Of a stretch of DNA of 64,000 nucleotides, positions 4,291 through 17,588 are shown piece after piece. Made by a program: the position numbers and the translations under genes. This stretch comes from an uncultured Acidobacteriota bacterium. Lineage in GTDB: Bacteria; Acidobacteriota; UBA6911. Under the pieces are notes generated by a model. The model did no database searches and was not told the origin of the DNA. It saw only the letters and a list, made by a program, of their open reading frames with translations. The first letter of the stretch is position 1. Each line of letters starts with the position of its first letter. Where the stretch lies: NCBI GenBank assembly GCA_963761825.1, contig CAVXIH010000009.1:542632-606631 (forward strand), read 5' to 3'.

Positions 4291-4959
4291 TCACACTTTG
4301 TGCTCTTTGCGGACGACTTTGCGGGCGCCGCTGTACCACGCCGAACTCCAGTCCTTGGGAGGGACAACTTCCTCGAGACGATCAAGCTGACCGATGTTTT
4401 TCAGCCTTTCATAGATGAGCTGCCAGGCACATGGCCGGTCTGAATCCACCTCGCACCGGTGCTCCAGCGAACCGCCGCAGGGTCCGTTCAACAGCCGTTT
4501 CGCGCATCGCGTCACGGGGCAAATCCCGCCGAATTGCGCCAGCATGCAGTCCCCGCAACCAAGACACTTTTCCGTCCAGACGGCCTGATCTTCCAGAACT
4601 CCCAGAAATTGCGTGTTCAGTCCGGCATACACCGGCTTGTCCGGAAAACGCTCCGCAATGGCCTGCACGCCCGCGCCGCATCCGAATGAAACAATTGCTT
4701 CGACCTTGGACGCCGGTTCGGCCAGATCCTTCAGGAATTCGTTTTCGCACTGCCGCTCGATAGTGATTTGAGTGATTTCGATGGGATTGCGGTCGAGCTT
4801 GCGCGCCATGCGGACCGCATAGGAGCTGATGCTGACTTCGCGCTCGCCGCCCGCGAGACAGACCGTCACGCACGTGCCGCATCCCACAAAAAGGACCTTT
4901 TTGTGTTGGGTAATTATGGATTTCAGTTCTGTGATGGATTTCGGTGAAGCAACGATCAT
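4291..4959 (-). CDS. metV: MetV, methylenetetrahydrofolate reductase C-terminal-domain zinc-ribbon protein
   Basis: Cys motifs GCGTCV, GCGAG, CLGCGDC and CAKRLLNGPCGG. 55-60% identical paralog at 48367-49038. Confidence 0.7.
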   Translation of the reverse strand: MIVASPKSITELKSIITQHKKVLFVGCGTCVTVCLAGGEREVSISSYAVRMARKLDRNPIEITQITIERQCENEFLKDLAEPASKVEAIVSFGCGAGVQAIAERFPDKPVYAGLNTQFLGVLEDQAVWTEKCLGCGDCMLAQFGGICPVTRCAKRLLNGPCGGSLEHRCEVDSDRPCAWQLIYERLKNIGQLDRLEEVVPPKDWSSAWYSGARKVVRKEHKV

Positions 4960-5456
4960 AATCTGCCTGCGCTTTCTTTCTTTTCAGGTTGTCTGAGCGG
5001 ATTGGGGCCCAGCGTCCCGATTTGGTCCATAATTTCCTGGATATGTTGCACAAATGCCGAGGCCATGGAATCGGAGAGGTTCACCATTTGGAGCCGCTCG
5101 CCACCAAGGCCGATTTCATCGAGGACTTCGCGGATCCGGTCCGTGCGTTTTCGCGCCCGCAGATTGCCCTCCACAAAATGGCAGCCGCCCTCGAGGCAAC
5201 CGACAATAAGAACTCCGTCGACGCCCTTTTCAAATGCTTCCAGGATGTGCTCCATTTCAAGCTTGCCTGTGCATGGGACAGAGATGATCCGCACGCCGAC
5301 AGGATATTGCATCCGTTTGGATCCCGCCAGGGCCGCCGCCGAAAACGCACAATAACTGCAGCAGAAGGCGATTATCTCCGGATCCCAGCTTAATTGCGGC
5401 GCCGGGCTTGCCGCCCCCGCGTTTACTTTTGCCGTTTGCCCGCCGACCTGAATCAT
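4956..5456 (-). CDS. mvhD: MvhD, methyl-viologen-reducing hydrogenase delta-subunit family protein (Hdr-associated)
   Basis: IIAFCCSYCAFSAAALAG...VPCTGK...GVDGVLIVGCLEGGCHF, the MvhD [2Fe-2S] signature. Confidence 0.8.
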   Translation of the reverse strand: MIQVGGQTAKVNAGAASPAPQLSWDPEIIAFCCSYCAFSAAALAGSKRMQYPVGVRIISVPCTGKLEMEHILEAFEKGVDGVLIVGCLEGGCHFVEGNLRARKRTDRIREVLDEIGLGGERLQMVNLSDSMASAFVQHIQEIMDQIGTLGPNPLRQPEKKESAGRL

Positions 5457-8400
5457 ACGGCACCTCCCACGAGCAGCTCATCGAGCATCGCCACCATGGT
5501 TTCGCTTTCCTGATGCTGCAGCGCAATCGTCCTGGCCGGACAGGCCGCCGCGCAACTTCCGCATCCGACACACTTGGTGCTCTGAATCTCCGCTTTCCTG
5601 AGTTCGTTGATCATCGGAGCGCCGTACGGACATATCTTGACGCACGTTGCGCACGCCACGCAGTCCACCTGCTTGATGAACGCGATCCGGCCCATGATTT
5701 CCAGCTGGCTCTTCGAAAGAATCGTGGAAGCGCGCGCAGCCACAGCCTGGGCCTGCGCGATGGTCTCATCCATGAAACGCGGCGAATGCGCCCATCCGCA
5801 CAGGTATTCGCCCTCGTTCGTTAAATCCACCGGGCGTAGTTTGGGATGCGCTTCCTGGAAAAACCCGTCTGCCCCCAGGGCGCTGCGCAGCAGGGTCGAG
5901 AGCGCCGGATTGTTCGCCGCCGGCGAAACACCCACTGAAAGCACCAGCAGATCCGCACCGATAGTTAAGTCCCGGTTGGCCGACGTATCGCAGACCTTCA
6001 CGTTGATCCGGCCGTTCACCTCTGAGACCTCCGGCGCAATCTTTCCGGTATGCCGGATAAACTGCACGCCCTGTTCGAGAGCTTTCTGAAAGAATAGTTC
6101 GCGGAATCCGCTGGTCCGCATATCACGCCCGACAATAATAACTTTGGCTTGCGGTAACCGGCGCTTGATTTCCAGAGCGTTTTTGACCGCCTCCGCACAA
6201 CAGACGCGGCTGCAATAGGGATTCTTTTCGTCACGGCTTTCCACGCATTGGATCATAAGAATGGTAGGCTCTTTTTTGTTTCGCAATCCCGCTGGCAGAT
6301 CACCGCCCGCCAACATGGACTCCAGCCTGCTCTGAGTCACCACGCGCCGGCTTTTCCCATGAAGAAATTGTTCGGTGGTCCGTTCCTGCCCTCCCGTGGC
6401 AACAATCACGACACCGTGTTCTATGGTCGTTTCCTTTCCCGCCACATTCAGAGTGCTCGTGAAATTGCCCGCCTGGCCGGCAATTCCTGCAAGCGCGGAA
6501 TTCAGGTAGACGCTGATCCTCGGGATTGGTCATGGTCCTGTCGATCATTTGCCGCAAGTGATCCTGAACATCGATCTGTTCCAGCGTCGTGTGAATATTT
6601 CGCAGCAGTCCGCCGAGAGAGGATTCCTGCTCCACGAGATGAACCCGGAATCCCTGGTCCGCAATATTTTGAGCAGCCGTCATTCCGGCCAGTCCTCCAC
6701 CCAGAACAAGTGCGGAGGCCGTCACCGGCATCTCGTACAGCGGCTGCGCCTTCAAATGCCTCGCCCGGGCAACGGCCATGGAGACCAGATCGAGGGCCTT
6801 GGCTGTAGCCGCCTTCGGATCGTCCCGATGCACCCAGGAACACTGGTCGCGGATATTCGTCATGGCGAAGAGGAACTGGTTCAGTCCGCTCTCGCGCAGA
6901 GTTTCCTGGAACAGGACTTCGTGCGTCCGCGACGAACAGGAGGCCACGACCAGGCGGTTAAGCCGGTGTTTGCGGATCAATTCCTTGATGTGTTGCTGGT
7001 TGGTATCCGAACACGTATACACGCTGGCTTCCGCATGCACGACATTGGGCATCTTCGCCGCCTTTCCGGCCACCCAATCCACATCGACTACCGACGAAAT
7101 ATTGCGTCCGCACTGGCAAACGAAAACGCCGATGCGCGGCGACTCATCCGTAATATCCCGCTCCCATGGATATTCGTGCTGCTGGATCATCGTCCCGCGC
7201 ACAGAGGTCAGCTGTCCCATGGCGCAGGCGGCCGCAGCAGATCCCTGTGCAACCGACTCCGGAATATCCTTCGGCTCCTGAAATGCCCCGGCCACGTAGA
7301 TGCCCGGACGGGAGGTGGCCAGCGGCTGAAGCCGTTGCGTTTGAGCGAAGCCGAACCGGTTGAGATCGAGGTTCAGCCTGCCGGCCATCTCCTTCACCTC
7401 CGAGGGGACCTGAATGCCCGCGCTCAGCACCACCAGGTCAAATTCCTGCTGCTGCCCTGCGCCGGCCGGGTCGACGTAGCTCAGCTGCAGGTTGTTTCCT
7501 GGAAGCTCCGCAACACGGAAAGAGCCCGCCCGGATGAACTTCACTCCATATTCATCGCCGGCCCGATCGATATAGCCATCGAACTCTTTGCCTGCGGCGC
7601 GCACATCCGAGCAGAAGATGGAAATATCCATGGGTGCGCCCTGGCTGTGTTCGGATGCGACGATCGCTTCCTTGACGGCGGCCATGCAGCAAACAGAGGA
7701 ACAATAGGCGTTGCCGCGGACAGGATCCCTGCTCCCTACGCACTGAAGGAAGGCAATTCTTTTCACCGCACTCCCGTCAGAAAGTCGCTGCAGGCTGCCT
7801 CCGGTCGGCCCCGTCGCCGCCAGCATGCGCTCGAACTGCATGCTGGATAGAACATTTGCGAAACGGCCGTAGCCCAGCTCTTCCCAAAGAGAGGCCTGGA
7901 ATTCCTCGACGCCGGGCGCAAAAATAATGCTGCCGACTTCGATGTCCGTCTCCACTGTCTGCTGATCATGCACAATCGCGCCTGCAGAGCATGCCTTGAC
8001 GCATTCCATGCATTCGCTGCACAGGCTGCAGGACAGACAGCGCTTCGCTTCGAGCATTGCTTGTTCAGAGACTGAATCCCAGGTCGATTTCAGACAGATC
8101 CCGCAGACGTGCTGCGACCTCCGCCTGCGGCATCCGGACACTATTCCGCAGTGCTGCGTCCGGTTTGGGATTGGGGGCAAGAGGCGCGCGCATTCGTTTT
8201 CACCGCAGCGGCATTCTTGGGAGCGTCGGTGCTTCGGATACTGGCAGCGCCGCGGATGAACGCATCGATCGATTCCGCCGCTTTGTGTCCCTGGGCTATC
8301 GCTTCAACAACGGACGCAGGACCCAGCGCCGCATCCCCTCCGGCAAAAATGCCTTTGATGCCGGTGGCAAGAGTATCTTTGTCCGCCAAAATCCTTCCGC

Positions 8401-9972
8401 CGGGACGCGGCTCCATGCCGATCCGGGAGGAGTTCGCTGCACGCCCGACAGCCACGAGGATCGTGTCGGTCTTGATAGAAGAGATTTGGGAATCGTCGAA
8501 CAGGGGATTGTAGCGTTTAAATCCTCTGTACACATCGAACACACTCGTGCAGGCGCGGAAAGTCACCGAAGAAACACGTTCGTGCTCCGCCTCTATTCTG
8601 GTTGGGCTTAAACCATTGTGGATTTCCACGCCTTCTTCAACAGCCTGGGCAACCCGCTCCGGAAGAGCGGACATTTCGGATCGGCTCTCCATGCAGGCGA
8701 GGTGCACGGACTTCACGCCCGGCAATCGCAGCGCTGTGCGCGCGGCATCCAAAGCAGGATCGGAACTGCCGATGCACCAGGACGCTGGGACCGATTTCGG
8801 GGAGCATTGCCGGAATTTGCCTCGCAAAGGAAATTTAATCCGTCCAGCACACCCTGCGCATCCTCGCCGGGAATTCCCAGTTTGCGATTCTCCCAGGCGC
8901 CGGTGGCGACAAAAACCGCATGAAACCCTTCCGCCGTTGCGGAGCTTCCGCTCGATTGCGGGTCGGACCGGAGAAGGTTCTTCGGTGCAGCCACTGTGGT
9001 GCCGGTTTTTACTTCCACTCCCAGGCTGATGATCGCCTGAATTTCCTTGTCGAGGACTTCTTTAGGCAGGCGGTACGCAGGGATGCCGTATCGGAGCATT
9101 CCACCCAGCTGCGGCTTCGCTTCAAACAGCGTCACACTATAGCCCATCAGCGTCAGATCGGTTGCCGCCGTCAATCCGGCAGGACCTCCGCCTATGACGG
9201 CGACTTTTTCTTCCAATGAAACGGGCGCAGGCGAAAACGCCGGGACAGGATTCGAATGAATGAAGTCACCGACAAACCGTTCCAGGTGGCCGAAATATAC
9301 GGCTTCATCGACCGCTGCGCGATTGCAGTGGTTCTGGCAGGGGTGCGGACAGACGCGTCCGCAGGAAGCCGGAATCGGGCAGCGCTGACGGATGAGCTCA
9401 TACGCTTCCGGAATTTTGCCCGCGGAAATAAGGGCTACCGCGCCCGGCACATTGATGCCCGCCGGACAAGCGGCTTTGCACGGGGCAGTCCCGGAGGCTT
9501 TGGAAATACTGTATGCGCTGGGAATCGCCTGAGGATACAGTTGAAAAATCGCCTTGCGCGAACTTAAGCCGCGGTCAAATTCGCTTGGAAGGTTGACAGG
9601 GCAGACGGCGGCGCAATCGCCGCAGGCCTCGCATTTTTTAATATCGACATAGCGCGGATTCTGGCGAATCTTGACTTTGAAACGCCCCGGCTGGCCGGAG
9701 ACATCCTGGATATCCGCCAGCGTGATAATTTCTATGTTCCTGTTCCGGGCGCACTCCACCAATTTGGGCGAGAGAATGCACATCGCGCAGTCGCCGGTTG
9801 GAAAAGTTTTATCGAGCTGCGCCATGCGTCCGCCAATCGCCGCGGCGGCATCCAGCAGGTAGACCTTGAAACCGCTCCCTGCAAGGTCAAGGGAAGCCTG
9901 AACTCCGGCAATCCCTCCTCCGCAAACCAGCACTGCCCCTATATTGTCGTTCTCTATCATTGTCATAACCAA
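5453..9972 (-). CDS. hdrA: HdrA-like megafusion: HdrA N-terminal FAD and ferredoxin, GltD/NfnB-like NAD(P)H-flavin oxidoreductase, then a complete second HdrA module. Disrupted by 3 frameshifts.
   Basis: Pieces are ORFs 8713-9972, 8141-8827, 6300-8180 and 5453-6445, all collinear with the plus-strand paralog at 43223-47717. Motifs GGGIAG, CEACGDC, GltD-type AVIGGGPAG and IFAGGD, HdrA CVGSRD...CSSVCC, FVCQCG...CSWVH, and C-terminal CVACATC...CVGCGSCAAACP. One shift was traced to a single extra G at about 6500. Confidence 0.75.
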
Positions 9973-9973
9973 T

Positions 9974-10004
9974 TTCAGATTCCAGATTCCAAATTCCAGA
10001 TTCG
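9974..10004. repeat. AGATTCC heptamer tandem array (intergenic)
   Basis: tttcagattccagattccaaattccagattcg lies between gltB1-B3 and hdrA. The same unit is repeated at 61131-61160. Confidence 0.5.
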
Positions 10005-10013: not shown

Positions 10014-12620
10014 TTATTTCTTCGATGACGCCAGCACAGATAGCTTTACGGCACTGACTTTGCGATACACATCGTGTGGCGCTTTGATTTGTCCATCCAC
10101 AGTCAACAGATCCTGTACGCGAATGCCGAACAGGCGCTCATTCTCGGCCAGGTACGGATGGATCAGCCTCCAGTCCTTGTCGGAGATCTCGGAGAAAACG
10201 CCTCCGTTCAGCTGTCTCTCGACCACCTGGCGATGAGGATCCCGGATGTAAATTGCGCCGCCGCTGGCCAGAGAAAACAGGTTACTGCCCGGATAGGGTT
10301 TCGGCTGGGGAATGATCCGGCCGCACCCGTCAAATTCCATGCCGTTCAACACAACAAATCCTCCGCCTGCCAGCGGGTCGCCGGCCATGAAGGATTCCGC
10401 CAGAAAATCCAGGCAGGTGCCGTTGATAACGACGCGCGGCCGGCCTACGGCGTTGATCAGCGGCCGGCCCGCCGCGTTGCCGCGAACATACACCTCGCCG
10501 CCCTTGGCGCCATACATGAATGTCTGACCGACATCGCCATAGATGACGAGTTTGCCGCTCTTAGCGATCTGAGCGACCTGGTCCTGCGCATTGCCGTGAA
10601 CGTTGATGTGCAGGCCATCCATGCCGCTGGCGGTGTAATCCCCGTCGGACCCATATAAATCGAGGCGAACATCGCCGGTATCGGGACCGAGCCCGGCGCC
10701 GTGGAATCGCTGCCCTCGCAGGCGATAGACAATGAAACGTCTCCAGCCCGCCCGGTAGGCTTTGCGTAAAAGGACTGCATCGCAATCGTCTCCTTCCGGG
10801 GGAAAACCCTGGGCGTCGACTACCAGGATTTCTTCACCGGCGCGCGGCGCGGCGATGCGATCTCGAGTCGCCCAATCGATACGCCGCCAGAAGCGGGTCG
10901 CCGGCTCCCCGAATAGAGGCGCACTGTCAAAAAGAGTGTCGAGCATTTTTTCAAAAACCCAGACTGCCGTCGCACGGCGCTTATCGCCGGTGAAGAAATG
11001 CTGGTCGTGGAGTTTTGTCAGCACTTCGATGGCGGTGGCCCTGGATTTGGTATTGTCCGCGCCCTGGACAACCAGGCGGCAGAAACGCATCAAATCCCCC
11101 GGAGACCAGGACGGCAGATCCAGCACATAGGTGAACAGGGCGTTCACATTTCCTTTTTGCAGCCACTGATTCACCAATTCCCTCAAGGCATCCGGCGCAT
11201 CCTTCTTCGCCATTGCTTCTTCCGGCGCATCGCACCGAACGGAACCGCCGTCCAGCGTCACTTCATGGCCAAACTTGTTCGTGCATGCCAGAGTCTTCTT
11301 GCCATCCTGATCGGAATCGACGGTGAAGATGAAGGCACCGCCGTCTGAACTGGATCCGCCGCGGGCATTCCAATACTTGTCCGCTATGGGGCAGAACCGC
11401 ATATCCTCGCGGGCGAGGCTGCGCAGGGTAGCGTCGATCGCCTGCTTTTCAGAGCAGATCAAACCGATTTGGACATCGCCGTTGTCGGAAAGCGCAAAGA
11501 CCTGCGGCCGGAGCATAGCGGTATCTGTGATGCCCAGCAGCTGAACTCTCTTTTTGTCAGGCTGACTGCGGGCAATGATGAAGAACCATGGTCCGTCGGG
11601 CGATGCGTGAATATGCGTCGCCTGTATCTGACGGTAGATGACCTGCTTCTCCTGCGGCAACTGGTCGAAATCCAGTTCTGTGGTGGGAGCCAGCGCTTCG
11701 ATGATGTACTCCAGGGGATACTTGTAAACACGGTCCCACAGATCGAACAGCTGGACCGAGACCTCGGTGTCGGTCAGGAACTGCTGGCGGATATTTCGCT
11801 GCCGCAGATATTCGCAGACTGAATAGTAGTTTGCAAAATCCCCGTTGTGTACCAGAGCCTCGTTCACTCCCACAAACGGATGCGCACCCCCGGGATGCCA
11901 CACCCGCCCCTTGGTCGGATAGCGCTGATGCGCGATCCAGGCATGAGCTTTAAAATCCTGGAGCTGGTAATACTCGACATTCTGTTCGGCATAGCCGACC
12001 AGTTTAAAGACCAGGAGATCTCTTCCGTGCGAAAGGACGAAGGCGCGCTTATCGCCGAGCGAGGCGTAGTAGGCGTCATTGAGCCGGTAGGAATTTCGAT
12101 AGATGAATTCATCTTCGAGATCCCGGGCAGAAAGGCTTTCAAGTCCGGTCTCTGCGGCAAAGGATTTCAAAACACCGGGTTTTGTGCGCACCACATACCG
12201 GTGCACATCGGGCGGGCGGACCTCGAGTCCGGGGATATCGCGATAGTCGTCAATATGGGACTGACGCGTAGACAGGACCACTTCAAAGTTCGGCAGGATG
12301 TACTGGCGCTCGAGTTCGGCGTGGCAGGAAGAATCCAGCAGAGCGATTTGAAGGAGATAATAATCATCGAGGATCTCGCGCGAAACTCCCATCTGCTCCG
12401 GAGTCAGGCCGACAGCCGCAATGCCGCCCCCTTTGCCGTTTCCGCGATTCTGCATCTGGACTGAGGGTTCGTAGATAAACCTCCCTGCCAGAGGCACGGT
12501 GCAGGCAAAGCCCGTCACGCCGCAGCCACCTTCTTCCGCCGATTTCGACAGGGAGAGCGGCTCCGGCCGGGAATATATCTGGGATCGCGTCGCCAGCAAT
12601 TTTTCAGCAATTTCGTTCAC
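10014..12620 (-). CDS. glutamate-synthase-like GltB1 (class II glutamine amidotransferase) fused to GltB3 (GXGXG beta-helix domain)
   Basis: N-terminal GGCGVTGF places the Ntn Cys right after the leader. C-terminal tandem GXGXG repeats (HINVHGNAQDQVAQIAKSGKLVIYGDVGQTF...YVRGNAGRP...VINGT). 868 aa, intact. Confidence 0.75.
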   Translation of the reverse strand: MNEIAEKLLATRSQIYSRPEPLSLSKSAEEGGCGVTGFACTVPLAGRFIYEPSVQMQNRGNGKGGGIAAVGLTPEQMGVSREILDDYYLLQIALLDSSCHAELERQYILPNFEVVLSTRQSHIDDYRDIPGLEVRPPDVHRYVVRTKPGVLKSFAAETGLESLSARDLEDEFIYRNSYRLNDAYYASLGDKRAFVLSHGRDLLVFKLVGYAEQNVEYYQLQDFKAHAWIAHQRYPTKGRVWHPGGAHPFVGVNEALVHNGDFANYYSVCEYLRQRNIRQQFLTDTEVSVQLFDLWDRVYKYPLEYIIEALAPTTELDFDQLPQEKQVIYRQIQATHIHASPDGPWFFIIARSQPDKKRVQLLGITDTAMLRPQVFALSDNGDVQIGLICSEKQAIDATLRSLAREDMRFCPIADKYWNARGGSSSDGGAFIFTVDSDQDGKKTLACTNKFGHEVTLDGGSVRCDAPEEAMAKKDAPDALRELVNQWLQKGNVNALFTYVLDLPSWSPGDLMRFCRLVVQGADNTKSRATAIEVLTKLHDQHFFTGDKRRATAVWVFEKMLDTLFDSAPLFGEPATRFWRRIDWATRDRIAAPRAGEEILVVDAQGFPPEGDDCDAVLLRKAYRAGWRRFIVYRLRGQRFHGAGLGPDTGDVRLDLYGSDGDYTASGMDGLHINVHGNAQDQVAQIAKSGKLVIYGDVGQTFMYGAKGGEVYVRGNAAGRPLINAVGRPRVVINGTCLDFLAESFMAGDPLAGGGFVVLNGMEFDGCGRIIPQPKPYPGSNLFSLASGGAIYIRDPHRQVVERQLNGGVFSEISDKDWRLIHPYLAENERLFGIRVQDLLTVDGQIKAPHDVYRKVSAVKLSVLASSKK

Positions 12621-12738
12621 TTCCCCAACTCCTTCTATTCATTCTTCCCTGGGAGCACCCTGGGAGCGCCGCCGTCTCGGCGGCAGAGCAGAATGCCGGC
12701 GAGGACGCCGGCGCTCCCAGGAATTCAACCCAAGCCGT

Positions 12739-14325
12739 CTACTTCATGTAGCACAAAACGTCGGTGCGGCCGCGCAGGTCGCGGATCGAAGTCATTCCCA
12801 GCTTCCTCAATACATCAAGCATCTGTTCGTGCCATGCATTCTGGAGATTGATCAGTCTCTGCGTCGCCCAATCCAGGCTCATAAGCTCTATCAATTCGGT
12901 ATCCGTGGAAGCGATTCCTCTCGGGCACCCTCTGCCGCTTTCGCAGGAGGCGCAGCGAACGCAGCCGAGCGCGACCATTTCGGCCGTGCCGATCACGACG
13001 CCATCGGCGCCCAGGGCGATGGCTTTCAGCGCGTCGTAGGCCGTGCGGATCCCGCCCGATGCAATCAGCGTAATTTTGTCGCGAATGCCTTCGGCACATA
13101 GGAACTTGTGAACCTTGGGCACGGCGTACTCGATGGGCATGGCGATGTTCTTCTTGGCGATATCCGGCGCAGCGCCCGTGCCTCCGTAGCTTCCGTCCAG
13201 GTGCACGATGTGCGCGCCGGCGTAATAGCTGCCTACCGCCACCATGTCTACATCCGTCGGCGTCGAAACCTTCACGCTGACGAGGCAGTGCGGATTTACC
13301 TCTTTAATCCAATCGAGGTGCTTCTTGTGGTCTTCCACGCTGTAGACGCTGTGAAACGGGAAAGGGCTGAACAGGGCGTTCCCCGGTACCGCGCCCCGCA
13401 TGCGCGCAACGGCGGGGGTGTTTTTGTCGCCAAGGAGATGCCCGCCCAGGCCGGGTTTCGCACCCTGCGCATACTTAAACTCGACGATTCTCACGCGCTG
13501 GATGGTTTCTTCGCGCACCCCGAACAGACCCGTCGCCACCTGCGTAATCATGTGGTCATCGTAGGGTTTGAGTCGGTCGGGATAGCCTCCCTCGCCCGTG
13601 CAGCTGAAGCTGTTCCAGGCTGCGGCCGCGCGAGCCTTGGCCAGGATCGTGTGGATGCTTACAGAACCAAAACTCATTCCGCCGCCGTATACCGGGATAT
13701 CGATATGGACCTGGGGCCGCCCGTCTGCGCGGCGATTGAGATCCAGGCTCGTGTCGATTTCCACCGGGGTTGCGTTTCTGAGTCCCCTCTTTTTTTCAGC
13801 AACCACGCTCTGCGATGTGGTATCGAACTCAGGCACTTCGAATTTGAACCGGATCCTGTCAAAGCCTCCGCCCGAATCGCCGCGGCGGTATTCCAGGTGC
13901 GGCGGAGGGATATGCCCCGTCTCGGCTTCATGCCAGGTAGAAAGGATCAGATCCCCGGTCCAGCGCGGATCGCCAAGGCACTCCACGTTGGGATTCAGCC
14001 GCAGCACCAGCGCCTTCGTGGGGCACTGGCTGATGCAGTAATGGTCGGTTTTAGCGCACGCAGGCCCGATGCAAAGATGGTCTTGCGGCCGGAGCATATA
14101 GGTGTAGCCTTCCGGCTTGACGTGCACACCCTGAGGGCAAAGTTCGGCGCAGCGCCCGCATGCGATGCAGCTCGCCAGACGGGTGACCTTGTATTTGCCT
14201 ATGGCATTGCGATATCGCTCGGGGACCGGGCGAACTTCCCGGCTGATGGTTTCCTGCGGCTCATCGCTGTGCCCGGGAGTCTTTTGAACCTCGAGGGGAA
14301 CATTCACTTCGGCAATGGTTGTCAT
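12739..14325 (-). CDS. glutamate-synthase domain-2 (GltB2, FMN-binding) family protein with N-terminal Fe-S cluster domain
   Basis: CIACGRCAELCP and CISQCP ferredoxin motifs. GltS FMN/3Fe-4S region signature LDGSYGGTGAAP and ASGGIRT. 528 aa, intact. Confidence 0.75.
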   Translation of the reverse strand: MTTIAEVNVPLEVQKTPGHSDEPQETISREVRPVPERYRNAIGKYKVTRLASCIACGRCAELCPQGVHVKPEGYTYMLRPQDHLCIGPACAKTDHYCISQCPTKALVLRLNPNVECLGDPRWTGDLILSTWHEAETGHIPPPHLEYRRGDSGGGFDRIRFKFEVPEFDTTSQSVVAEKKRGLRNATPVEIDTSLDLNRRADGRPQVHIDIPVYGGGMSFGSVSIHTILAKARAAAAWNSFSCTGEGGYPDRLKPYDDHMITQVATGLFGVREETIQRVRIVEFKYAQGAKPGLGGHLLGDKNTPAVARMRGAVPGNALFSPFPFHSVYSVEDHKKHLDWIKEVNPHCLVSVKVSTPTDVDMVAVGSYYAGAHIVHLDGSYGGTGAAPDIAKKNIAMPIEYAVPKVHKFLCAEGIRDKITLIASGGIRTAYDALKAIALGADGVVIGTAEMVALGCVRCASCESGRGCPRGIASTDTELIELMSLDWATQRLINLQNAWHEQMLDVLRKLGMTSIRDLRGRTDVLCYMK

Positions 14326-15779
14326 GCTATTTCCTGTTTCAATGGCATCGGAGCCAAATCACCGAATGCCTCTTTCTCAATCTCTTCCATGAAAATGGCG
14401 CGTCCCATCTCGCCGCGCAGCCTGCGGACTTCGCGGATGCCCATGGCACCGAGCACTTCAATCAGCTGGCTGTGCCATGCGCCCATAAGATTGACCATGC
14501 GCCGTGCGGCATACGCGCTGTCCTGCAGGCCAATCTCGGCGGGACAGGCGCAGGATGGAGGCTCGGGGTTCCGTGCGCCGCCGTCGATATTCAGCGTGTG
14601 GGCGTTGCGGCAGACGCGACAGCCGAGAGCCACCAGCAACGCGGTATCCACGGCGACCAAGTCGGCGCCGCAAATAATCGCTTTGGCCATGTGCTCGGCC
14701 AGGGCGATGCCTCCGGATATGATCAGCGTAAGTTCATCCCGGCATCCTTCATTCACCAGACGCCCGTGAATGTCGCGCAGTACATCTTTAATGTGCCGGC
14801 CCGGCAATCCGGGCCCTGTCCGCTCACAGCCATGCTGATCCGCGCAGAGGTGAAACACTTTCATTCCCTGCTGCGACAGTTCGAGGATGCGGTCTGCCGT
14901 CGACGGGCTTAGCGTCAGGCGGACCGAAAGGATCGCCTGCGGTTTCCGGGCGCGAATCGTTTTCGCCATTTCCAGCAAATCCGGGCCGTCGACAAGTTGC
15001 GCCATAGTCTGAATCATGTCGCAGAGTGTCCCGTCGCCGCGAAGATCGTCGCCGCTGAAAATGGGCGCAACATGGGGCAGCAGGTCCTGCGGAAGTTTTG
15101 CCGCATCGCGCGCCCACACCATGGCCAGGGTCTTCAATTCTTTGGCCGCGCTTACACGAGCCCGCGCGATCCTGATCTGGCGCACCGGCCAGGCAGGGAC
15201 ATCCAAGATGGCAGGAATCGGGAGTTCCAGGAGGTTGGAGGGCTCCGTGCGCATCTTGCCATCGGCCGTGAAGCTCAAGCGCATCGGCTTGAGGCCTACA
15301 TCCACGGAAGTGGAGATGTACTCGCGCCCGTGGATTCCGTCGCGCGTCGGGCGGACAATTTCCGACATATCCGTCCAGATAGAATCGAAGCCGGGGCCGT
15401 GGAACATGCCGCGATAGCCCGCGCCGGACACGGGGATTTTGCCCGAATCCGCCTGGTTCCATGTGCTGAAGATAATATCCGGCTTCCAGTAATCGTCTCC
15501 CATATCCAGGAACTCCGGATTGGCCGACAGGCTCAGCAATCCTTTCGTGCAGCCCTGGACGCAGGAGAAGCAGGCCTTGCATTCATACAGCGTCTGCATG
15601 GATGCCTGCGGACTGCGGTTATGAGCGGACTCGTGTTGATACACGTCGTAGCAGCAGCGGGGCTTGACGCAATTGGTGCAGCGCGAGCAGTCCTCGCGCC
15701 AGTCGATGCCGCCGAATTTCCCGATTCGGTGAAACTGTCCCGGAGTTGTCGTGGTGTGAATGTGATAACGGTCTGGCAT
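14322..15779 (-). CDS. divergent GltB2-like (glutamate synthase domain-2 family) Fe-S protein, paralog of 12739-14325
   Basis: N-terminal Cys clusters (CSRCTNCVKPRCC, CKACFSCVQGC). C-terminal ISGGIALAEHMAKAIICGADLVAVDTALLVALGC aligns with the paralog, but the GGTGA FMN motif is replaced by QHGCERTG. Confidence 0.6.
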   Translation of the reverse strand: MPDRYHIHTTTTPGQFHRIGKFGGIDWREDCSRCTNCVKPRCCYDVYQHESAHNRSPQASMQTLYECKACFSCVQGCTKGLLSLSANPEFLDMGDDYWKPDIIFSTWNQADSGKIPVSGAGYRGMFHGPGFDSIWTDMSEIVRPTRDGIHGREYISTSVDVGLKPMRLSFTADGKMRTEPSNLLELPIPAILDVPAWPVRQIRIARARVSAAKELKTLAMVWARDAAKLPQDLLPHVAPIFSGDDLRGDGTLCDMIQTMAQLVDGPDLLEMAKTIRARKPQAILSVRLTLSPSTADRILELSQQGMKVFHLCADQHGCERTGPGLPGRHIKDVLRDIHGRLVNEGCRDELTLIISGGIALAEHMAKAIICGADLVAVDTALLVALGCRVCRNAHTLNIDGGARNPEPPSCACPAEIGLQDSAYAARRMVNLMGAWHSQLIEVLGAMGIREVRRLRGEMGRAIFMEEIEKEAFGDLAPMPLKQEIA

Positions 15780-15858: not shown

Positions 15859-16770
15859 TTAACAAAGTTTTGCGCGCTTGATGACCTCGCCGGCCAGCGA
15901 CTCGCAGCCGCCGCAAAGCACATGAATTCCCCGCACCCCGGGCATATCCTTTAAACTGCCGGCGATTTCCGCTGCGATCGCCACTCCCTCGCTGGCAGGG
16001 TCGGCAGCGTTGGCCATGCGATCGACAACGCTGTCGTCGATCGGCCCGTAGGTTGGATACCGCTGCAGTTTTTGGGCCTGCTCCACGCTGCACAAGGGGC
16101 AGGACGCTTGGAATGATGGCCGTACGCTTGTCCAGGCCTGCCGCACGCACGGCATCCAGCCATTCCGAAAAACCGTTCAGGTTAAACACCGCCTGAGTCA
16201 GCAGAAAGTCCGCTCCGACAACAATCTTTTTTCTCAGACGAAGGAGATTCAGTTCCATGGGACGCATGTACGGGTGTGCGGTTGCTCCGATCTGCAGATT
16301 CAGCTTGGGCTCAAGCTCTTTGCCGTTCAGCCCCGAGCCATAGAGCACTATCTTCTTCATGGCCTGAGTGAATTGGACGGAGTCGAAATCGTTGGCAGCG
16401 GAAGCCTGTGGGCAGACGCCGAGCGACTGATGATTTCCGGTCACGCAAAGGATGGCGGCAATATTGAGCGCCGCTGCGCCTAGAGCGTCGCTCATCAGCG
16501 CAATCCGGTTGCGGTCGCGCGTTGCCATCGTCAGGATGACGCTCGCCGTATCGCCTTGCTCAGAAGAATCGCTGCAGAAAAAGCTGAACCGCGAATTCTG
16601 TCGGGATTGTCCGCCACGACTACGGCATCCAGCTCCGGCGGCAGCACGGAGGATAGAGCTCGGATAGCCCCGGCATCGGAACCCAACGGGGGCAGGCATT
16701 CTGCCGTCACAACCAGGCGACCCGAATTTAATGCTTTAGCCAGCTTATTCATCGCAATCGTCCTCGCCAA
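15859..16770 (-). CDS. metF: 5,10-methylenetetrahydrofolate reductase MetF, disrupted by 2 frameshifts
   Basis: N-terminal piece 16531-16770 (LVVTAECLPP), middle piece in the 15791-16699 frame (IALMSDALGAAALNIAAILCVTGNHQ), and C-terminal piece 15859-16155 (GVRGIHVL). All align to the paralog at 49138-50057. Confidence 0.7.
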
Positions 16771-17332
16771 AGGCTGTGTTTTTCCCGGAAAAGCCTCCGG
16801 TCTGCATAGCTGGAAAAGGCAACTGCAAAGGATTTGGGGGATTAGCCCGAAGAGCCTGAATCACCTGATCGCGAATGGCGGCGACCTGGGCTTCCAGCGG
16901 ATCGGAACGATTTTTGCCGGCATCTTCGCCCGTTGCCAGTGCCAGATCTTCCATCGCAGAGCCCGGAAGATAGGAGAGCAGCAAACGCTCGTCACCGAGG
17001 CCGATTTCCTTCAGGATCGACCGAATATAGTCTACGCGCAGCGCGCATCTACGGCTCCCTTCGATATAGTGGCAGTTGTCATCCTGGCATGCGATAACCG
17101 ACACCACGCTGGAGCCGGTTTCAAATGCCTTCAGAACATGTTCAGGCTGCAGCCGCCCTGTGCAGGGAACGATGACTTGCCGGACCGTGCCGGGCAAGTG
17201 CAGGTCCGGGACCACGGGCCGAGCCCGCTTGGCGGAAGTCGTCTCCTTGGGTGGACGCGCGCAATTGGCACATACGAATACCGTAACTCCGGCAGTATTT
17301 TGTGTTGTTTCCACTTCTTGCCCCTCGATCAT
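16745..17332 (-). CDS. MvhD-like iron-sulfur protein (second MvhD-family gene in this operon)
   Basis: VFVCANCA...VPCTGRLQPEHVLKAFETG...VIACQDDNCHYIEG...LKEIGLGDERL. Confidence 0.65.
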   Translation of the reverse strand: MIEGQEVETTQNTAGVTVFVCANCARPPKETTSAKRARPVVPDLHLPGTVRQVIVPCTGRLQPEHVLKAFETGSSVVSVIACQDDNCHYIEGSRRCALRVDYIRSILKEIGLGDERLLLSYLPGSAMEDLALATGEDAGKNRSDPLEAQVAAIRDQVIQALRANPPNPLQLPFPAMQTGGFSGKNTAFGEDDCDE

Positions 17333-17550
17333 TTCTCTCCCCGGCCGATTTCAGTTGGATCCGCAAGGGCGGCATCGGCAGAAACAGCAGAAACGTTGTT
17401 CACGACCGGGTGTGTGCAAAACTCTTCGCACTGAATAACCTCAAGCTGGGGGATTCTTTTCAGTACGCAGGCCTGGTAATGATCGCAGGTCTCGCAAATA
17501 CCGGAATACTTGACCGCATTAGCCATGGCATCCATCCTTTCATCTTGCAT
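17329..17550 (-). CDS. small Cys-rich hypothetical protein (CxxC..C / CxxxC), first gene of the operon
   Basis: GICETCDHYQAC...CEEFC. Probable true start is the internal ATG at about 17535 (MDAMANAV), which has a GAAAGGA RBS. Confidence 0.4.
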   Translation of the reverse strand: MQDERMDAMANAVKYSGICETCDHYQACVLKRIPQLEVIQCEEFCTHPVVNNVSAVSADAALADPTEIGRGEK

Positions 17551-17570
17551 AACTTCCGCAACTTTACCTT

Positions 17571-17588
17571 AGCAAAGGACATGCCAAT
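17571..17588 (-). promoter_or_regulatory. sigma-54 (RpoN) -24/-12 promoter
   Basis: Minus-strand read is TTGGCATGtcctTTGCT. It matches consensus TGGCAC-N5-TTGCW with correct spacing, about 20-45 nt upstream of the first ORF. Confidence 0.65.

What the first reader, a model, noticed from the sequence alone, without database searches (positions are those of the whole stretch)
4291..17588. Sigma-54-driven 9-gene operon coupling split glutamate-synthase modules to an HdrA-GltD megafusion, two MvhD, MetF and MetV, with no HdrBC
Gene order on the minus strand: Cys-rich small protein, MvhD-like, MetF, GltB2-like, GltB2, GltB1-B3 fusion, HdrA-(GltD/NfnB-like)-HdrA megafusion, MvhD, MetV. The paralogous locus at 41.7-50.1 kb has the Moorella-type layout hdrC-hdrB-hdrA-mvhD-metV-metF. 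Here the disulfide-reductase subunits HdrBC are absent and glutamate-synthase-type amidotransferase, FMN/3Fe-4S and GXGXG modules sit in their place. The flavin-based bifurcating core (HdrA FAD plus the MvhD 2Fe-2S relay) and an NAD(P)H-binding GltD-like domain are both fused into a single ~1500-aa polypeptide. I do not know of a characterised complex with this composition. The inference is a ferredoxin/NAD(P)H-linked electron-bifurcating or confurcating enzyme that supplies reductant to glutamate synthesis, or a GltB-like catalytic module using another substrate, co-expressed with methylene-THF reductase under nitrogen-type (RpoN) control.
Basis: partly seen in the sequence, partly recalled or inferred. 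Interest (0 to 1): 0.85.

Follow-up and report, generated by a model that had tools for sequence, protein, structure and literature searches.

The report
Split glutamate synthase wired to HdrL
A nitrogen-regulated operon encodes a three-piece glutamate synthase interleaved with electron-transfer proteins otherwise known from heterodisulfide and methylene-folate reductases. The same uncharacterised arrangement recurs in anaerobes of ten or more phyla and may be a new, possibly energy-conserving, way to power nitrogen assimilation.

Summary
The nine minus-strand genes, their order and their domains are real, and so is a sigma-54 promoter (17571-17586) next to a sigma-54 activator.

In this window hdrL and metF are broken by single-base insertions. 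kdpA and kdpB are also broken, and a 97%-identical contig has all nine genes intact, so I read these as sequence errors.

The ~1500-aa "megafusion" is the already named but never characterised HdrL.

The three GltB-like genes together look like a complete glutamate synthase alpha subunit. The Ntn Cys is invariant, the FMN/2-oxoglutarate motifs and cluster cysteines are kept, and one paralogue is non-catalytic. In about 20 of 80 related loci they sit beside amtB, glnK, glnA or carAB; L059 also has nadE.

The headline "no HdrBC" describes one lineage only. The commonest form (35+ of 80 loci) carries hdrC-hdrB between gltB13 and hdrL, so the Glt modules do not replace HdrBC.

The cluster's MetF has Asn at catalytic Asp120. 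That residue is replaced in 18 of 23 HdrL-type clusters, so this MetF is doubtful as a true folate reductase.

Best reading: a glutamine:2-oxoglutarate amidotransferase fed through MvhD, MetV and MetF' by NAD(P)H-oxidising HdrL. Electron bifurcation is inferred only. I found no paper describing this cluster. Verdict: new variant of known kinds, interest 0.65.

The parts
17571..17586 (-). Sigma-54 type -24/-12 promoter element, TGGCATGTCCTTTGCT
   Evidence: One mismatch to TGGCAC-N5-TTGCW, about 20 nt upstream of the ATG at 17550. The same element is conserved upstream of the operon in 10 Acidobacteriota loci that have the activator and is absent from the other loci.
18561..20369 (-). Sigma-54 enhancer-binding activator (602 aa) with a degenerate KaiC-like N-terminal sensor domain
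   Evidence: Pfam Sigma54_activat 2.4e-68, AAA_lid_14 and HTH_8. It is conserved next to the operon in L001-L004, L012, L033 and L034. Its N-terminal ~220 aa also occur in XRE-cupin regulators beside the cluster in Desulfobacterales loci L051 and L066.
17329..17550 (-). 73-aa Cys/His-rich small protein, first gene of the operon
   Evidence: No Pfam or NCBIfam match. A 73-aa gene is called at the same place in the 97%-identical contig. A homologous ORF is present in 5 Acidobacteriota loci. It overlaps the next gene by 4 nt.
16745..17332 (-). MvhD-like [2Fe-2S] protein (195 aa)
   Evidence: Pfam FlpD 2.4e-23. The CxxC, PCTG, C and CH cysteines are retained, read directly from the sequence. An MvhD gene is present in nearly all related clusters with a complete upstream flank.
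15859..16752 (-). MetF' (MTHFR-family flavoprotein), broken here by two frameshifts (~16556 and ~16091)
   Evidence: Pfam MTHFR. Segments were mapped. The gene is intact (297/328 aa) in close relatives. In E. coli numbering, Glu28 is kept, Asp120 is Asn and Gln183 is kept.
14322..15779 (-). GltB2-like paralogue (485 aa): two N-terminal [4Fe-4S] motifs plus a TIM barrel lacking the catalytic motifs
   Evidence: Pfam Glu_synthase on the C-terminal part only, 7.6e-14. It is 32% identical to GltB2 over the second half of the barrel and 40% over the linker. QGAKPG and GGTGA are absent in all 54 orthologues. The predicted barrel resembles FMN-dependent TIM barrels, including GltS.
12739..14325 (-). 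GltB2 (528 aa): FMN/Fe-S synthase subunit with an N-terminal 2x[4Fe-4S] domain
   Evidence: Pfam Glu_synthase 1.7e-89. It aligns to A. brasilense GltS alpha residues 857-1169 with E 1e-51. The QGAK Lys, the ARMR Arg, GGTGA and Cys1102/1108/1113 are kept. A fourth Cys gives C-x2-C-x2-C-x5-C, seen in every orthologue examined.
12640..12730 (-). GC-rich stem-loop in the gltB2-gltB13 spacer
   Evidence: RNA fold of -62.5 kcal/mol, z = -4.05 against shuffles. There is no U-tract. It is absent from L001. Its function is unknown.
10014..12620 (-). GltB13 (868 aa): class-II Ntn glutamine amidotransferase, helical linker and GXGXG beta-helix
   Evidence: Pfam GATase_6 and GXGXG. PDB hits are FwdC, GlmS and GltS. 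Cys33 and the Gln-binding and oxyanion motifs are invariant in 71 homologues. The best fold matches are glutamate synthases, on a low-confidence model.
5453..9972 (-). HdrL (~1500 aa): HdrA N-terminal part, NfnB/GltD-like NAD(P)H module, the rest of HdrA, then a second HdrA. Broken here by single-base insertions.
   Evidence: Pfam pieces. The intact L001 orthologue maps as follows: residues 28-170 to HdrA; 176-690 to NfnB/GltD (E 1e-71 to 1e-46); ~690-950 to the rest of the first HdrA module; 956-1516 to a second HdrA.
4956..5456 (-). MvhD [2Fe-2S] protein (166 aa)
   Evidence: Pfam FlpD 8.3e-44; NCBIfam VhuD-like. It overlaps both hdrL and metV by 4 nt.
4291..4959 (-). MetV (222 aa), the Fe-S partner of MetF
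   Evidence: Pfam DUF5981/MTHFR_C 2.4e-37. It is 95% identical to the L001 orthologue.

Best explanation
The operon encodes a nitrogen-regulated glutamate synthase (glutamine + 2-oxoglutarate + 2 e- -> 2 glutamate) built from three separate polypeptides.

- GltB13 hydrolyses glutamine at an Ntn cysteine, which is exposed after removal of a ~32-residue propeptide. It also provides the beta-helix.
- GltB2 carries the FMN, the 2-oxoglutarate site and an Fe-S chain.
- GltB2L is a non-catalytic Fe-S paralogue that pairs with GltB2.

Electrons do not come from a free GltD subunit. They come from HdrL, which oxidises NAD(P)H at its NfnB/GltD-like insert and contains two HdrA-type flavin modules. They then travel through the two MvhD [2Fe-2S] proteins, MetV and the flavoprotein MetF'. 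In this lineage MetF' has lost catalytic Asp120, so it most likely acts as a relay or scaffold rather than as a folate reductase.

Glutamine-dependent reduction of 2-oxoglutarate by NAD(P)H is strongly exergonic (about -49 kJ/mol by my own estimate from standard potentials). The HdrA-type flavin could therefore couple it to ferredoxin reduction, that is, to electron bifurcation.

Shown here: gene content and order, residue conservation, conservation of the cluster across phyla, nitrogen-gene neighbourhoods, the sigma-54 promoter and the activator.

Inferred: that the products form one complex, the electron path, the use of NAD(P)H, and bifurcation.
For: - Catalytic integrity: the GATase Cys33 and the R/N-G/D motifs are invariant in 71 homologues. 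GltB2 aligns to GltS alpha 857-1169 with the 2-oxoglutarate Lys/Arg, the FMN motif and the cluster cysteines.
- Nitrogen link: amtB, glnK, glnA, carAB or nadE adjoin the cluster in about 20 of 80 loci from Actinomycetota, Desulfobacterota, Chloroflexota, Syntrophorhabdaceae and others. L059 reads mvhD-metV-metF-B2L-B2-B13-RR-x-amt-glnK-glnA-nadE-carA-carB on one strand. L039 reads RR-glnA-mvhD-B2L-B2-B13-carAB.
- Regulation: a sigma-54 promoter and activator are conserved in the window's clade.
- Interleaving: metF and metV, an obligate pair in known enzymes, bracket the glt genes and hdrL in 35+ loci from five or more phyla. Genes overlap by 4 nt.
- An MvhD gene, known only as a partner of HdrA, is present in almost every variant.
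- HdrL contains an NfnB/GltD-type NAD(P)H module.
- The cluster MetF is degenerate at Asp120 in 18 of 23 HdrL-type clusters, but intact in all 16 Desulfobacterota/Chloroflexota-type clusters that lack hdrL. The 4 UBA6911-type clusters that also lack hdrL have Asn.
- Giant natural fusions of GlcD-like dehydrogenase + Fer4 + GltB2 + GltB13 show that B2 and B13 work together and that other electron-input modules are used elsewhere.
Against: - No biochemical, transcript or proteomic data exist for any member.
- GltB2 and GltB2L each carry their own ferredoxin-like domain, so the trio could run on ferredoxin alone with no need for HdrL or MetFV.
- The GATase domain is far from canonical GltB1; only PF13522 matches.
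- hdrL and metF' are frameshifted in this window, so in this particular genome they could be inactive.
- Many clusters (Desulfobacterota, Chloroflexota, UBA6911 Acidobacteriota) have no hdrL within 10 kb, so HdrL is not obligatory.
- Most HdrL-type clusters also have hdrCB, and this model gives them no role.
- The structure models are poor (mean pLDDT about 60).
- I could not check whether these genomes lack an ordinary gltBD.
Confidence: 0.5

Rival explanations
1. Two independent enzymes share one locus: a ferredoxin-dependent, archaeal-type split glutamate synthase (GltB13/B2/B2L), and an HdrL-MvhD-MetFV methylene-tetrahydrofolate reductase of the Moorella type. They are co-regulated but not physically or electronically coupled.
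For: Each module is known separately: the MetFV-HdrABC-MvhD complex (PMC6085437, citing Mock 2014) and HdrL-MvhD (PMC2702500). GltB2 and GltB2L have their own 2x[4Fe-4S] entry domains. L039 has only mvhD plus the trio, with no metFV. The window has a strong hairpin in the gltB2-gltB13 spacer that could separate transcripts.
Against: metF and metV are split to opposite ends of the cluster, around the glt genes, in 35+ loci of several phyla. An extra mvhD always accompanies the trio even where hdrL is absent. MetF' has lost Asp120 in most HdrL-type clusters, so the 'second enzyme' would be crippled. The window already holds a complete hdrCB-hdrL-mvhD-metVF set, with intact Glu28/Asp120, 25 kb away.
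Confidence: 0.2
2. Electrons flow between the folate site and the glutamate site. This would be a methyl-tetrahydrofolate-dependent glutamate synthase: CH3-THF + 2-oxoglutarate + Gln -> CH2-THF + 2 Glu. It would use the 'cheap' -200 mV electrons of the methyl-folate couple for nitrogen assimilation.
For: The minimal conserved set in Desulfobacterota, Chloroflexota and Nitrospirota is mvhD-metV-metF-B2L-B2-B13. It has no NAD(P)H module, its MetF keeps Glu28/Asp120/Gln183 in 16 of 16 cases, and it sits inside amt-glnK-glnA-carAB neighbourhoods. By my own estimate from standard potentials, the reaction is thermodynamically feasible.
Against: In the window's architecture Asp120 is Asn (Tyr, Ala, His or Phe in relatives), and HdrL supplies an NAD(P)H site. 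There are no data on folate binding. No precedent is known to me.
Confidence: 0.12
3. The GltB-like trio is not a glutamate synthase. It would be a related amide-transfer reductase using another amide donor or keto acid, for example one resembling N-methylglutamate synthase MgsABC.
For: The GATase domain matches only generic class-II models (PF13522, GlmS, PurF), not GATase_2. No NCBIfam equivalog matches GltB13 or GltB2L. The link with a folate-family enzyme would suit C1/methylamine chemistry.
Against: The Gln-binding Arg and Asp, the oxyanion Asn-Gly, and the 2-oxoglutarate Lys and Arg of GltS are all conserved. The neighbours are glutamine-metabolism genes (glnA, carAB, nadE, amtB, glnK), not methylamine-pathway genes. 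No gmaS or mgd genes were seen in the loci.
Confidence: 0.1
4. In this particular genome the locus is decaying: hdrL and metF' are true pseudogenes.
For: At least seven frame-breaking indels fall in hdrL and metF', while the three glt genes, both mvhD genes and metV stay intact.
Against: All the breaks are 1-2-base insertions that mostly extend short runs. kdpA, kdpB, the second hdrL and mvhD are also broken. Amino-acid identity to L001 is not lowered in the broken genes beyond what their faster evolution predicts. A 97%-identical contig has all genes intact.
Confidence: 0.06

Closest known systems
MetFV-HdrABC-MvhD methylene-tetrahydrofolate reductase complex of Moorella thermoacetica (Mock et al. 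2014, as summarised in PMC6085437 and PMC9012536)
   Same: Both have MetF, MetV, MvhD and an HdrA-type flavoprotein encoded together. Both are presumed to oxidise NAD(P)H and to be electron-bifurcating with an unidentified partner reaction. The window's second locus (41.6-50.1 kb) has exactly this gene order.
   Different: Here three glutamate-synthase genes and a second mvhD lie between metF and hdrL. HdrA is the double, NfnB-containing HdrL. hdrBC are missing in this lineage. MetF' has Asn at Asp120. The neighbours are nitrogen-assimilation genes, not acetyl-CoA pathway genes.
HdrL-MvhD modules of Desulfobacterium autotrophicum and Syntrophobacter fumaroxidans (PMC2702500, PMC5947623), and the HdrA-NfnB fusions of ANME-1 (PMC9012536)
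   Same: Both are large HdrA proteins carrying an NfnB/GltD-like NAD(P)H-binding insert, followed by mvhD. No biochemical characterisation exists for either.
   Different: The described partners are DsrABC, HdrABC with an Fe-S protein, pyruvate:ferredoxin oxidoreductase or formate dehydrogenase. No published case was found with glutamate-synthase modules.
NADPH-dependent glutamate synthase GltBD (Azospirillum brasilense; PDB 1EA0, 2VDC, 6S6S; PMC8097209)
   Same: Both have an Ntn amidotransferase, an FMN/2-oxoglutarate TIM barrel with a Cys3 cluster site, a GXGXG beta-helix, and a GltD-type NAD(P)H/FAD/2x[4Fe-4S] module.
   Different: The alpha subunit is split into three proteins, one of them a non-catalytic paralogue. 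GltB2 has an extra fourth Cys and an N-terminal ferredoxin domain. The GltD-type module is embedded in HdrL rather than being a free beta subunit.
Archaeal-type split glutamate synthase (separate GltB1, GltB2, GltB3) and the F420-dependent glutamate synthases with FrhB-like input modules (PMC9012536)
   Same: Both use separate polypeptides for the amidotransferase, synthase and beta-helix parts, have a ferredoxin domain on the synthase subunit, and show exchangeable electron-input modules.
   Different: Here GltB1 and GltB3 are fused with a ~160-aa helical linker between them, an extra GltB2 paralogue is present, and the input module is of the Hdr/MvhD/MetFV type.
N-methylglutamate synthase MgsABC (PMC6237917 uses the GltB1/2/3 naming)
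   Same: Both are three-part homologues of GltB1, GltB3 and GltB2.
   Different: No methylamine-pathway genes are nearby. The glutamine- and 2-oxoglutarate-binding residues are conserved and the neighbours are glutamine-metabolism genes. Sequence similarity to Mgs could not be measured here.

Membership tests
Glutamate synthase (GltS alpha-type catalytic core) | N-terminal nucleophile Cys of a class-II amidotransferase, with the Gln-binding Arg/Asp and the oxyanion Asn-Gly | tested here: met
   GGC33GVTGF, HQRYPT, VHNGDF and TDTEV are invariant in 71 homologues and align to GlmS residues 62-133. A ~32-aa presequence is implied. Presequences in bacterial GltB are known to me from memory only.
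Glutamate synthase (GltS alpha-type catalytic core) | FMN/2-oxoglutarate synthase barrel with the QGAKPG Lys, the ARxR Arg and the GGTGA motif | tested here: met
   GltB2 residues 216-525 align to A. brasilense GltS 857-1169, E 1e-51, with all motifs kept. GGTGA is present in 61 of 61 orthologues.
Glutamate synthase (GltS alpha-type catalytic core) | [3Fe-4S] cluster ligated by three Cys (Cys1102, 1108 and 1113 in A. brasilense) | tested here: met
   All three Cys align. A conserved fourth Cys (C-x2-C-x2-C-x5-C) suggests a [4Fe-4S] cluster instead. The cluster type cannot be tested with these tools.
Glutamate synthase (GltS alpha-type catalytic core) | C-terminal GXGXG beta-helix domain | tested here: met
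   Pfam GXGXG 1.6e-14. There are FwdC and GltS sequence hits, and GltS is the top fold match.
Glutamate synthase (GltS alpha-type catalytic core) | Central domain between the amidotransferase and FMN domains | tested here: inconclusive
   GltB2L is a degenerate barrel paralogue that could fill this role. The model has mean pLDDT 59, and the fold search returns generic FMN barrels, GltS among them.
Glutamate synthase (GltS alpha-type catalytic core) | Glutamine- and 2-oxoglutarate-dependent glutamate formation | not testable with these tools
   This needs an enzyme assay.
MetFV-type methylene-tetrahydrofolate reductase | MTHFR TIM-barrel flavoprotein together with the MetV Fe-S subunit | tested here: met
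   Pfam MTHFR and DUF5981/MTHFR_C.
MetFV-type methylene-tetrahydrofolate reductase | Catalytic Glu28 and Asp120, plus Gln183 (E. coli numbering) | tested here: not met
   The window's MetF' has Glu, Asn and Gln. Among HdrL-type clusters Asp120 is replaced in 18 of 23 and Glu28 in 4. The window's second-locus MetF has Glu and Asp. The E. coli sequence was recalled from memory; its numbering was checked against the PDB alignment.
HdrABC heterodisulfide reductase | HdrA flavoprotein with Fe-S domains | tested here: met
   HdrL matches M. wolfeii and other HdrA structures in four stretches, E about 1e-162. NCBIfam HdrA2 2.3e-274, which is below the family cut-off.
HdrABC heterodisulfide reductase | HdrB (CCG domains) and HdrC encoded with HdrA | tested here: not met
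   Both are absent between 4291 and 17550. Both are present at 41579-43122 in the window and inside the cluster in most other lineages.
HdrL (Strittmatter et al. 2009) | Large HdrA-type protein with a GltD/NfnB-like NAD(P)H-binding insert, followed by mvhD | tested here: met
   Residues 176-690 of the L001 orthologue match NfnB, GltD and DPD (E 1e-71 to 1e-32). They are flanked by HdrA segments, and a second HdrA follows. mvhD overlaps the 3' end of the gene.
Sigma-54-dependent operon | GG-N10-GC -24/-12 element upstream, with an adjacent enhancer-binding protein | tested here: met
   The presence of rpoN and actual transcription were not tested.
Flavin-based electron-bifurcating enzyme | Demonstrated coupling of an exergonic and an endergonic reduction at one flavin | not testable with these tools
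   Only the HdrA-type and NfnB-type flavin modules are seen. The thermodynamic feasibility is my own estimate.
N-methylglutamate synthase MgsABC | Association with gmaS and mgdABCD methylamine-pathway genes | tested here: not met
   None was seen in the 80 loci. The neighbours are amtB, glnK, glnA, carAB and nadE. Direct sequence comparison to Mgs was not possible.

The most novel reading that the evidence does not exclude
The cluster encodes an electron-bifurcating glutamate synthase. HdrL would oxidise NAD(P)H and split the electron pair. One branch would go downhill through MvhD, MetV and MetF' to the glutamine-dependent reduction of 2-oxoglutarate. The other would go uphill to ferredoxin. 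Anaerobes of anoxic soils, peat and sediments would then recover as reduced ferredoxin the free energy that ordinary GOGAT dissipates. In the hdrL-less variants the same core would instead draw electrons from methyl-tetrahydrofolate. Either case would be a new physiological class of glutamate synthase and the first bifurcating enzyme of nitrogen assimilation. It could also point to a partner reaction for the still unresolved MetFV-Hdr complexes.
Probability: 0.25. Interest if true: 0.85.

Novelty: new variant of a known kind. Interest (0 to 1): 0.65.

Why it matters
Glutamate synthase is the main entry point of nitrogen into biomass. Its known forms take electrons from NADPH, NADH, ferredoxin or F420.

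This cluster suggests a further form, in which the catalytic core is wired to heterodisulfide-reductase-type bifurcation machinery. It is found in more than 7,700 protein clusters, mostly from peat, wetland, sediment and groundwater metagenomes. It occurs in Acidobacteriota, Actinomycetota, Planctomycetota, Verrucomicrobiota, Myxococcota, Desulfobacterota, Chloroflexota, Nitrospirota and other phyla.

If confirmed, it would:
- change how nitrogen assimilation and energy budgets are modelled for abundant uncultured anaerobes;
- give HdrL a first defined physiological partner;
- offer a testable candidate for the missing co-substrate problem of MetFV-Hdr complexes.

If the modules prove independent, the finding reduces to a conserved co-regulated neighbourhood of two known enzyme types.

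Tried and rejected
- **Pseudogene reading of the frameshifts:** rejected as the main explanation. kdpA, kdpB and the second hdrL locus are also broken, all breaks are small insertions, and near-identical contigs are intact.
- **IS200 insertion next to the operon:** the Y1 transposase gene is flanked by inverted REP-like palindromes that recur elsewhere in the window. It is therefore a REP-associated transposase, and it also sits between activator and operon in L001 and the 97%-identical contig; L002-L004 lack it.
- **'HdrBC replaced by Glt modules':** rejected by comparing the 80 loci.
- **N-methylglutamate synthase analogy:** no pathway genes nearby and the Gln/2-oxoglutarate residues are conserved. 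No Mgs sequence was available for a direct comparison.
- **Internal sigma-70 promoters or terminators:** the scans gave no more matches than shuffled sequence.
- **Structure prediction:** GltB2L and GltB13 gave low-confidence models (mean pLDDT 59 and 61), because only relatives at least 68-77% identical to the query (the best 120 hits of each search) could be used for the alignment. The fold searches only confirm a generic FMN barrel and a GltS-like beta-helix.
- **Literature:** eight full-text searches found no description of GltB-like genes with MvhD, MetFV or HdrL.

Full report
**What is in the window.** Nine minus-strand ORFs run from 17550 to 4291. Profile searches identify them in transcription order:

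| Gene | Coordinates | Identification |
|---|---|---|
| small ORF | 17329-17550 | 73-aa Cys/His-rich protein, no family match |
| mvhD' | 16745-17332 | FlpD/MvhD-like [2Fe-2S] protein |
| metF' | 15859-16752 | MTHFR-family protein |
| gltB2L | 14322-15779 | 485 aa; only the C-terminal half matches Glu_synthase |
| gltB2 | 12739-14325 | 528 aa; Glu_synthase E 1.7e-89, N-terminal 2x[4Fe-4S] domain |
| gltB13 | 10014-12620 | 868 aa; class-II amidotransferase + GXGXG beta-helix |
| hdrL | 5453-~9970 | ~1500 aa; HdrA + Fer4_20/Pyr_redox_2 (GltD/NfnB-like) + second HdrA |
| mvhD | 4956-5456 | FlpD/MvhD |
| metV | 4291-4959 | MTHFR_C/DUF5981 |

Four gene junctions overlap by 4 nt and metF' overlaps mvhD' by 8 nt. 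The other gaps are about 79, 118 and about 41 nt. No hdrB or hdrC lies inside the locus.

**Sequence quality.**
- hdrL is split over four reading frames and metF' over three.
- A nucleotide alignment with the closest genome locus (L001, an Acidobacteriota MAG; GltB13 91% identical) shows that the breaks are one- or two-base insertions at about 16556, 16091, 8795, 8773, 8188, 8067 and 6518. Most extend short runs.
- L001 has intact genes of 1516 aa (HdrL) and 328 aa (MetF) in the same order.
- A 97%-identical metagenome contig has intact genes of 73, 195, 297, 485, 528, 868, 1503, 166 and 222 aa, with the same flanking genes.
- kdpA and kdpB (25.9-29.9 kb) and the second hdrL, mvhD and metF locus are also frame-broken.

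I therefore treat the frameshifts as window-wide sequence errors. Real decay in this strain is not excluded.

**Regulation.**
- The best match in the window to TGGCAC-N5-TTGCW lies at 17571-17586 on the minus strand, about 20 nt upstream of the first ATG.
- Window-wide, the number of matches with up to two mismatches is no more than chance, so position and conservation carry the argument.
- The same element (TGGCA[CT]-N5-[CT]TTGC[AT]) lies upstream of the operon in 10 related Acidobacteriota loci, all of which also carry the neighbouring sigma-54 activator. It is absent from the other loci.
- The activator (18561-20369) has a Sigma54_activat AAA+ core and an HTH_8 domain. Instead of a receiver domain it has a degenerate KaiC-like N-terminal domain.
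- That N-terminal domain recurs, fused to an XRE HTH and a cupin, in regulators beside the cluster in Desulfobacterales loci. This suggests a sensor dedicated to this gene set.
- Scans for sigma-70 promoters and intrinsic terminators inside the locus found no more than shuffled sequence gives.
- A strong GC-rich hairpin (-62.5 kcal/mol, z = -4.05) occupies the gltB2-gltB13 spacer. It is absent from L001.

**The megafusion is HdrL.**
- In the intact L001 orthologue, residues 28-170 match the start of the FAD domain of HdrA.
- Residues 176-690 match NfnB, the DPD N-terminal part and GltD (E 1e-71 to 1e-32). The match to NfnB is better than the match to GltD.
- Residues ~690-950 complete the first HdrA, and residues 956-1516 form a second HdrA.
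- This architecture, followed by mvhD, was named HdrL in Desulfobacterium autotrophicum (PMC2702500) and discussed for Syntrophobacter fumaroxidans (PMC5947623). An NfnB insertion into the ferredoxin domain of HdrA was also described in ANME-1 (PMC9012536).
- None of these has been characterised biochemically. So the protein type is known, but its partnership here is not.

**The three Glt proteins look like a complete, active glutamate-synthase core.**
- *GltB13.* In an alignment of 71 homologues, the Cys of GGCGVTGF (Cys33), HQRYPT, VHNGDF and TDTEV are invariant. These are the nucleophile, the Gln alpha-carboxylate Arg, the oxyanion Asn-Gly and the Gln alpha-amino Asp of class-II amidotransferases. 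The ~32 residues before the Cys are not conserved, as expected for a propeptide.
- *GltB2.* Residues 216-525 align to A. brasilense GltS alpha 857-1169 (E 1e-51). The alignment keeps the Lys of QGAKPG and the Arg of ARxR (Lys972 and Arg992 in Synechocystis numbering, recalled from memory), the GGTGA motif, and the three cluster cysteines Cys1102, 1108 and 1113. A fourth Cys gives C-x2-C-x2-C-x5-C, seen in every orthologue examined.
- *GltB2L.* It is a paralogue with the same layout of ferredoxin domain, linker and barrel. It lacks QGAKPG and GGTGA in all 54 orthologues, so it is probably a non-catalytic Fe-S partner.
- *Models.* The structure models are poor (mean pLDDT 59 and 61). Their best matches are FMN barrels including GltS, and GltS itself.
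- *Natural fusions.* An exhaustive search found giant 2500-3150-aa metagenomic proteins that fuse a GlcD-like FAD dehydrogenase, Fe-S domains, GltB2 and GltB13. This shows that B2 and B13 act together and that other electron-input modules are plugged onto the same core.

**Comparative genomics changes the picture.** GltB13 has more than 560 relatives in species-representative genomes and more than 7,700 protein clusters in metagenomes. I analysed 80 loci. All are MAGs or uncultured bins, from Acidobacteriota, Actinomycetota, Myxococcota, Planctomycetota, Verrucomicrobiota, Chloroflexota, Desulfobacterota, Nitrospirota, Latescibacterota, Armatimonadota and Poribacteria.

| Architecture | Where found |
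|---|---|
| mvhD-metF-gltB2L-gltB2-gltB13-hdrC-hdrB-hdrL-mvhD-metV | Commonest: 22 complete loci plus about 13 that are truncated or carry extra flanking genes. hdrB (CCG) and hdrC confirmed by Pfam |
| Same, without hdrC-hdrB | The window and seven close Acidobacteriota relatives only |
| No hdrL | UBA6911-like Acidobacteria |
| mvhD-metV-metF-gltB2L-gltB2-gltB13, or mvhD-gltB2L-gltB2-gltB13-metV-metF, no hdrL within 10 kb | Desulfobacterota, Chloroflexota, Nitrospirota |
| mvhD plus the trio only | L039 and L048 |

The persistent core is therefore mvhD plus the three glt genes, usually with metFV. hdrL and hdrCB are frequent additions. 'No HdrBC' is a lineage-specific loss.

The window itself carries hdrC-hdrB-hdrL-mvhD-metV-metF 25 kb away.

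**Nitrogen context.** About 20 of the 80 loci have amtB, glnK, glnA and/or carAB directly beside the cluster, in both the hdrL-containing and hdrL-less architectures.
- L059 (Dehalococcoidales) reads, on one strand: mvhD-metV-metF-B2L-B2-B13-response regulator-x-amtB-glnK-glnA-glutamine-dependent NAD synthetase-carA-carB.
- L039 reads: response regulator-glnA-mvhD-B2L-B2-B13-carA-carB.

Together with sigma-54 control in the window's clade, this supports glutamine and glutamate chemistry and nitrogen regulation.

**MetF'.** I aligned the cluster MetFs with E. coli MetF. That sequence was recalled from memory, and its numbering was checked against the PDB alignment.
- All 16 MetFs from the Desulfobacterota/Chloroflexota-type hdrL-less clusters keep Glu28, Asp120 and Gln183; the 4 from UBA6911-type clusters, which also lack hdrL, have Asn at Asp120.
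- In hdrL-type clusters Asp120 is replaced in 18 of 23 (Asn, Tyr, Ala, His, Phe), Glu28 in 4 and Gln183 in 9.
- The frame-corrected window protein has Glu, Asn and Gln. The MetF of the second locus has Glu and Asp.
- Asp120 and Glu28 are the folate half-reaction residues of E. coli MTHFR (established knowledge, recalled from memory).

The cluster MetF in this architecture is therefore doubtful as a folate reductase. It may serve as a flavin relay or scaffold.

**Mechanism.** I favour one complex.
- GltB13, GltB2 and GltB2L form the glutamine:2-oxoglutarate amidotransferase.
- HdrL oxidises NAD(P)H at its NfnB-like module.
- The two MvhD proteins, MetV and MetF' connect HdrL to the Fe-S chain of GltB2 and GltB2L.

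Three arguments support physical coupling:
- the interleaved gene order, with metF and metV at opposite ends;
- its conservation across phyla;
- the constant presence of MvhD, which is known only as a partner of HdrA.

By my own estimate from standard potentials (about -320 mV for NAD(P)H, about -140 mV for 2-oxoglutarate + NH4+/glutamate, plus glutamine hydrolysis), the reaction releases about 49 kJ/mol. That is enough to drive ferredoxin reduction by a second NAD(P)H, so bifurcation is plausible. It remains purely inferred.

Rival readings are:
- two independent co-regulated enzymes;
- a methyl-folate-driven glutamate synthase, most attractive for the hdrL-less variants with an intact MetF;
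- a different amide or keto-acid substrate;
- real pseudogenisation in this strain.

This model gives hdrCB no role in the majority architecture.

**Novelty.** Eight full-text searches found HdrL, MetFV-Hdr, F420-dependent glutamate synthases and HdrA-NfnB fusions. None described glutamate-synthase genes embedded among mvhD, metFV and hdrL. NCBIfam has no equivalog model for GltB13, GltB2L or MetV, and sources label the proteins 'glutamate synthase' or 'hypothetical'.

All the modules are known kinds, and the combination appears undescribed. I rate it a new variant of known kinds. Interest is 0.65: the system is widespread, conserved and testable, but every functional statement is inference.

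Noticed in passing
window 17733-17764, 18492-18523, 1897-1975, 2097-2130: REP-like palindromes of 31-33 nt (TTTCGGTGACAGTCACCATAACCTCGAAATT) flank the Y1_Tnp gene (17805-18494) in inverted orientation and recur about 16 kb away. The 'IS200-like' gene therefore looks like a REP-associated tyrosine transposase. It sits between the sigma-54 activator and the operon, and the same gene is at that position in L001 and in the 97%-identical contig.
   Followed up: partly
window 9958-10016, 61119-61163, 41301-41431, 48280-48343, 49050-49114, 50519-50601, 59570-59625, 63732-63831, 954-980: Many intergenic spacers hold short tandem hepta- or octamer repeats, often arranged as palindromes (for example GATTCCA-type repeats between hdrL and gltB13, and ACGATTG repeats between metV and metF of the second locus). 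Their function is unknown.
   Followed up: no
window 12640-12730: A strong GC-rich hairpin (-62.5 kcal/mol, z = -4.05) lies in the gltB2-gltB13 spacer. It arises from a 40 + 11 nt insertion relative to L001 and has no U-tract.
   Followed up: partly
window 25880-29873 and 43265-49900: kdpA and kdpB are each split over several frames, as are the second hdrL, mvhD and metF. The window as a whole carries frequent small indels, so ORF-based annotation of this sequence is unreliable.
   Followed up: partly
window 41579-50100: The second locus reads hdrC-hdrB-HdrL-type (with NfnB insert)-mvhD-metV-metF. Its MetF keeps Glu28/Asp120 and closely resembles the MetFs found next to the glt trio in Desulfobacterota and Nitrospirota loci (for example L057 and L074).
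   Followed up: partly
proteins P0267, P0302, P0316 (metagenome contigs): Giant proteins of 2500-3150 aa fuse a GlcD-like FAD-linked 2-hydroxyacid dehydrogenase, Fe-S domains, GltB2 and a GltB13-like region. This may be a glutamate synthase fed directly by a hydroxyacid dehydrogenase. Each is a single-member cluster, so the gene calls need checking.
   Followed up: partly
window 18561-20369; L066 1104-2405; L051 4675-5343: The ~220-aa degenerate KaiC-like N-terminal domain of the sigma-54 activator also occurs in XRE-HTH + cupin regulators beside the cluster in Desulfobacterales. Different output domains share the same putative sensor.
   Followed up: partly
L059 519-18154: A Dehalococcoidales locus places the cluster in one co-directional string with a response regulator, amtB, glnK, glnA, glutamine-dependent NAD synthetase and carAB, forming a 'glutamine-use' supercluster.
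   Followed up: yes
L075 3983-22012: A Syntrophorhabdaceae locus carries two mvhD-metV-metF sets. One sits directly upstream of the glt trio and the other after hdrB-hdrL. This suggests that the split metF...metV architecture arose by merging two units and losing one copy of each gene.
   Followed up: partly
window 20581-30397: A Kdp potassium-uptake system (a KdpD-like DUF4118 histidine kinase, a response regulator, and kdpA, kdpB, kdpC) lies immediately upstream of the activator gene. It appears unrelated to the finding.
   Followed up: no
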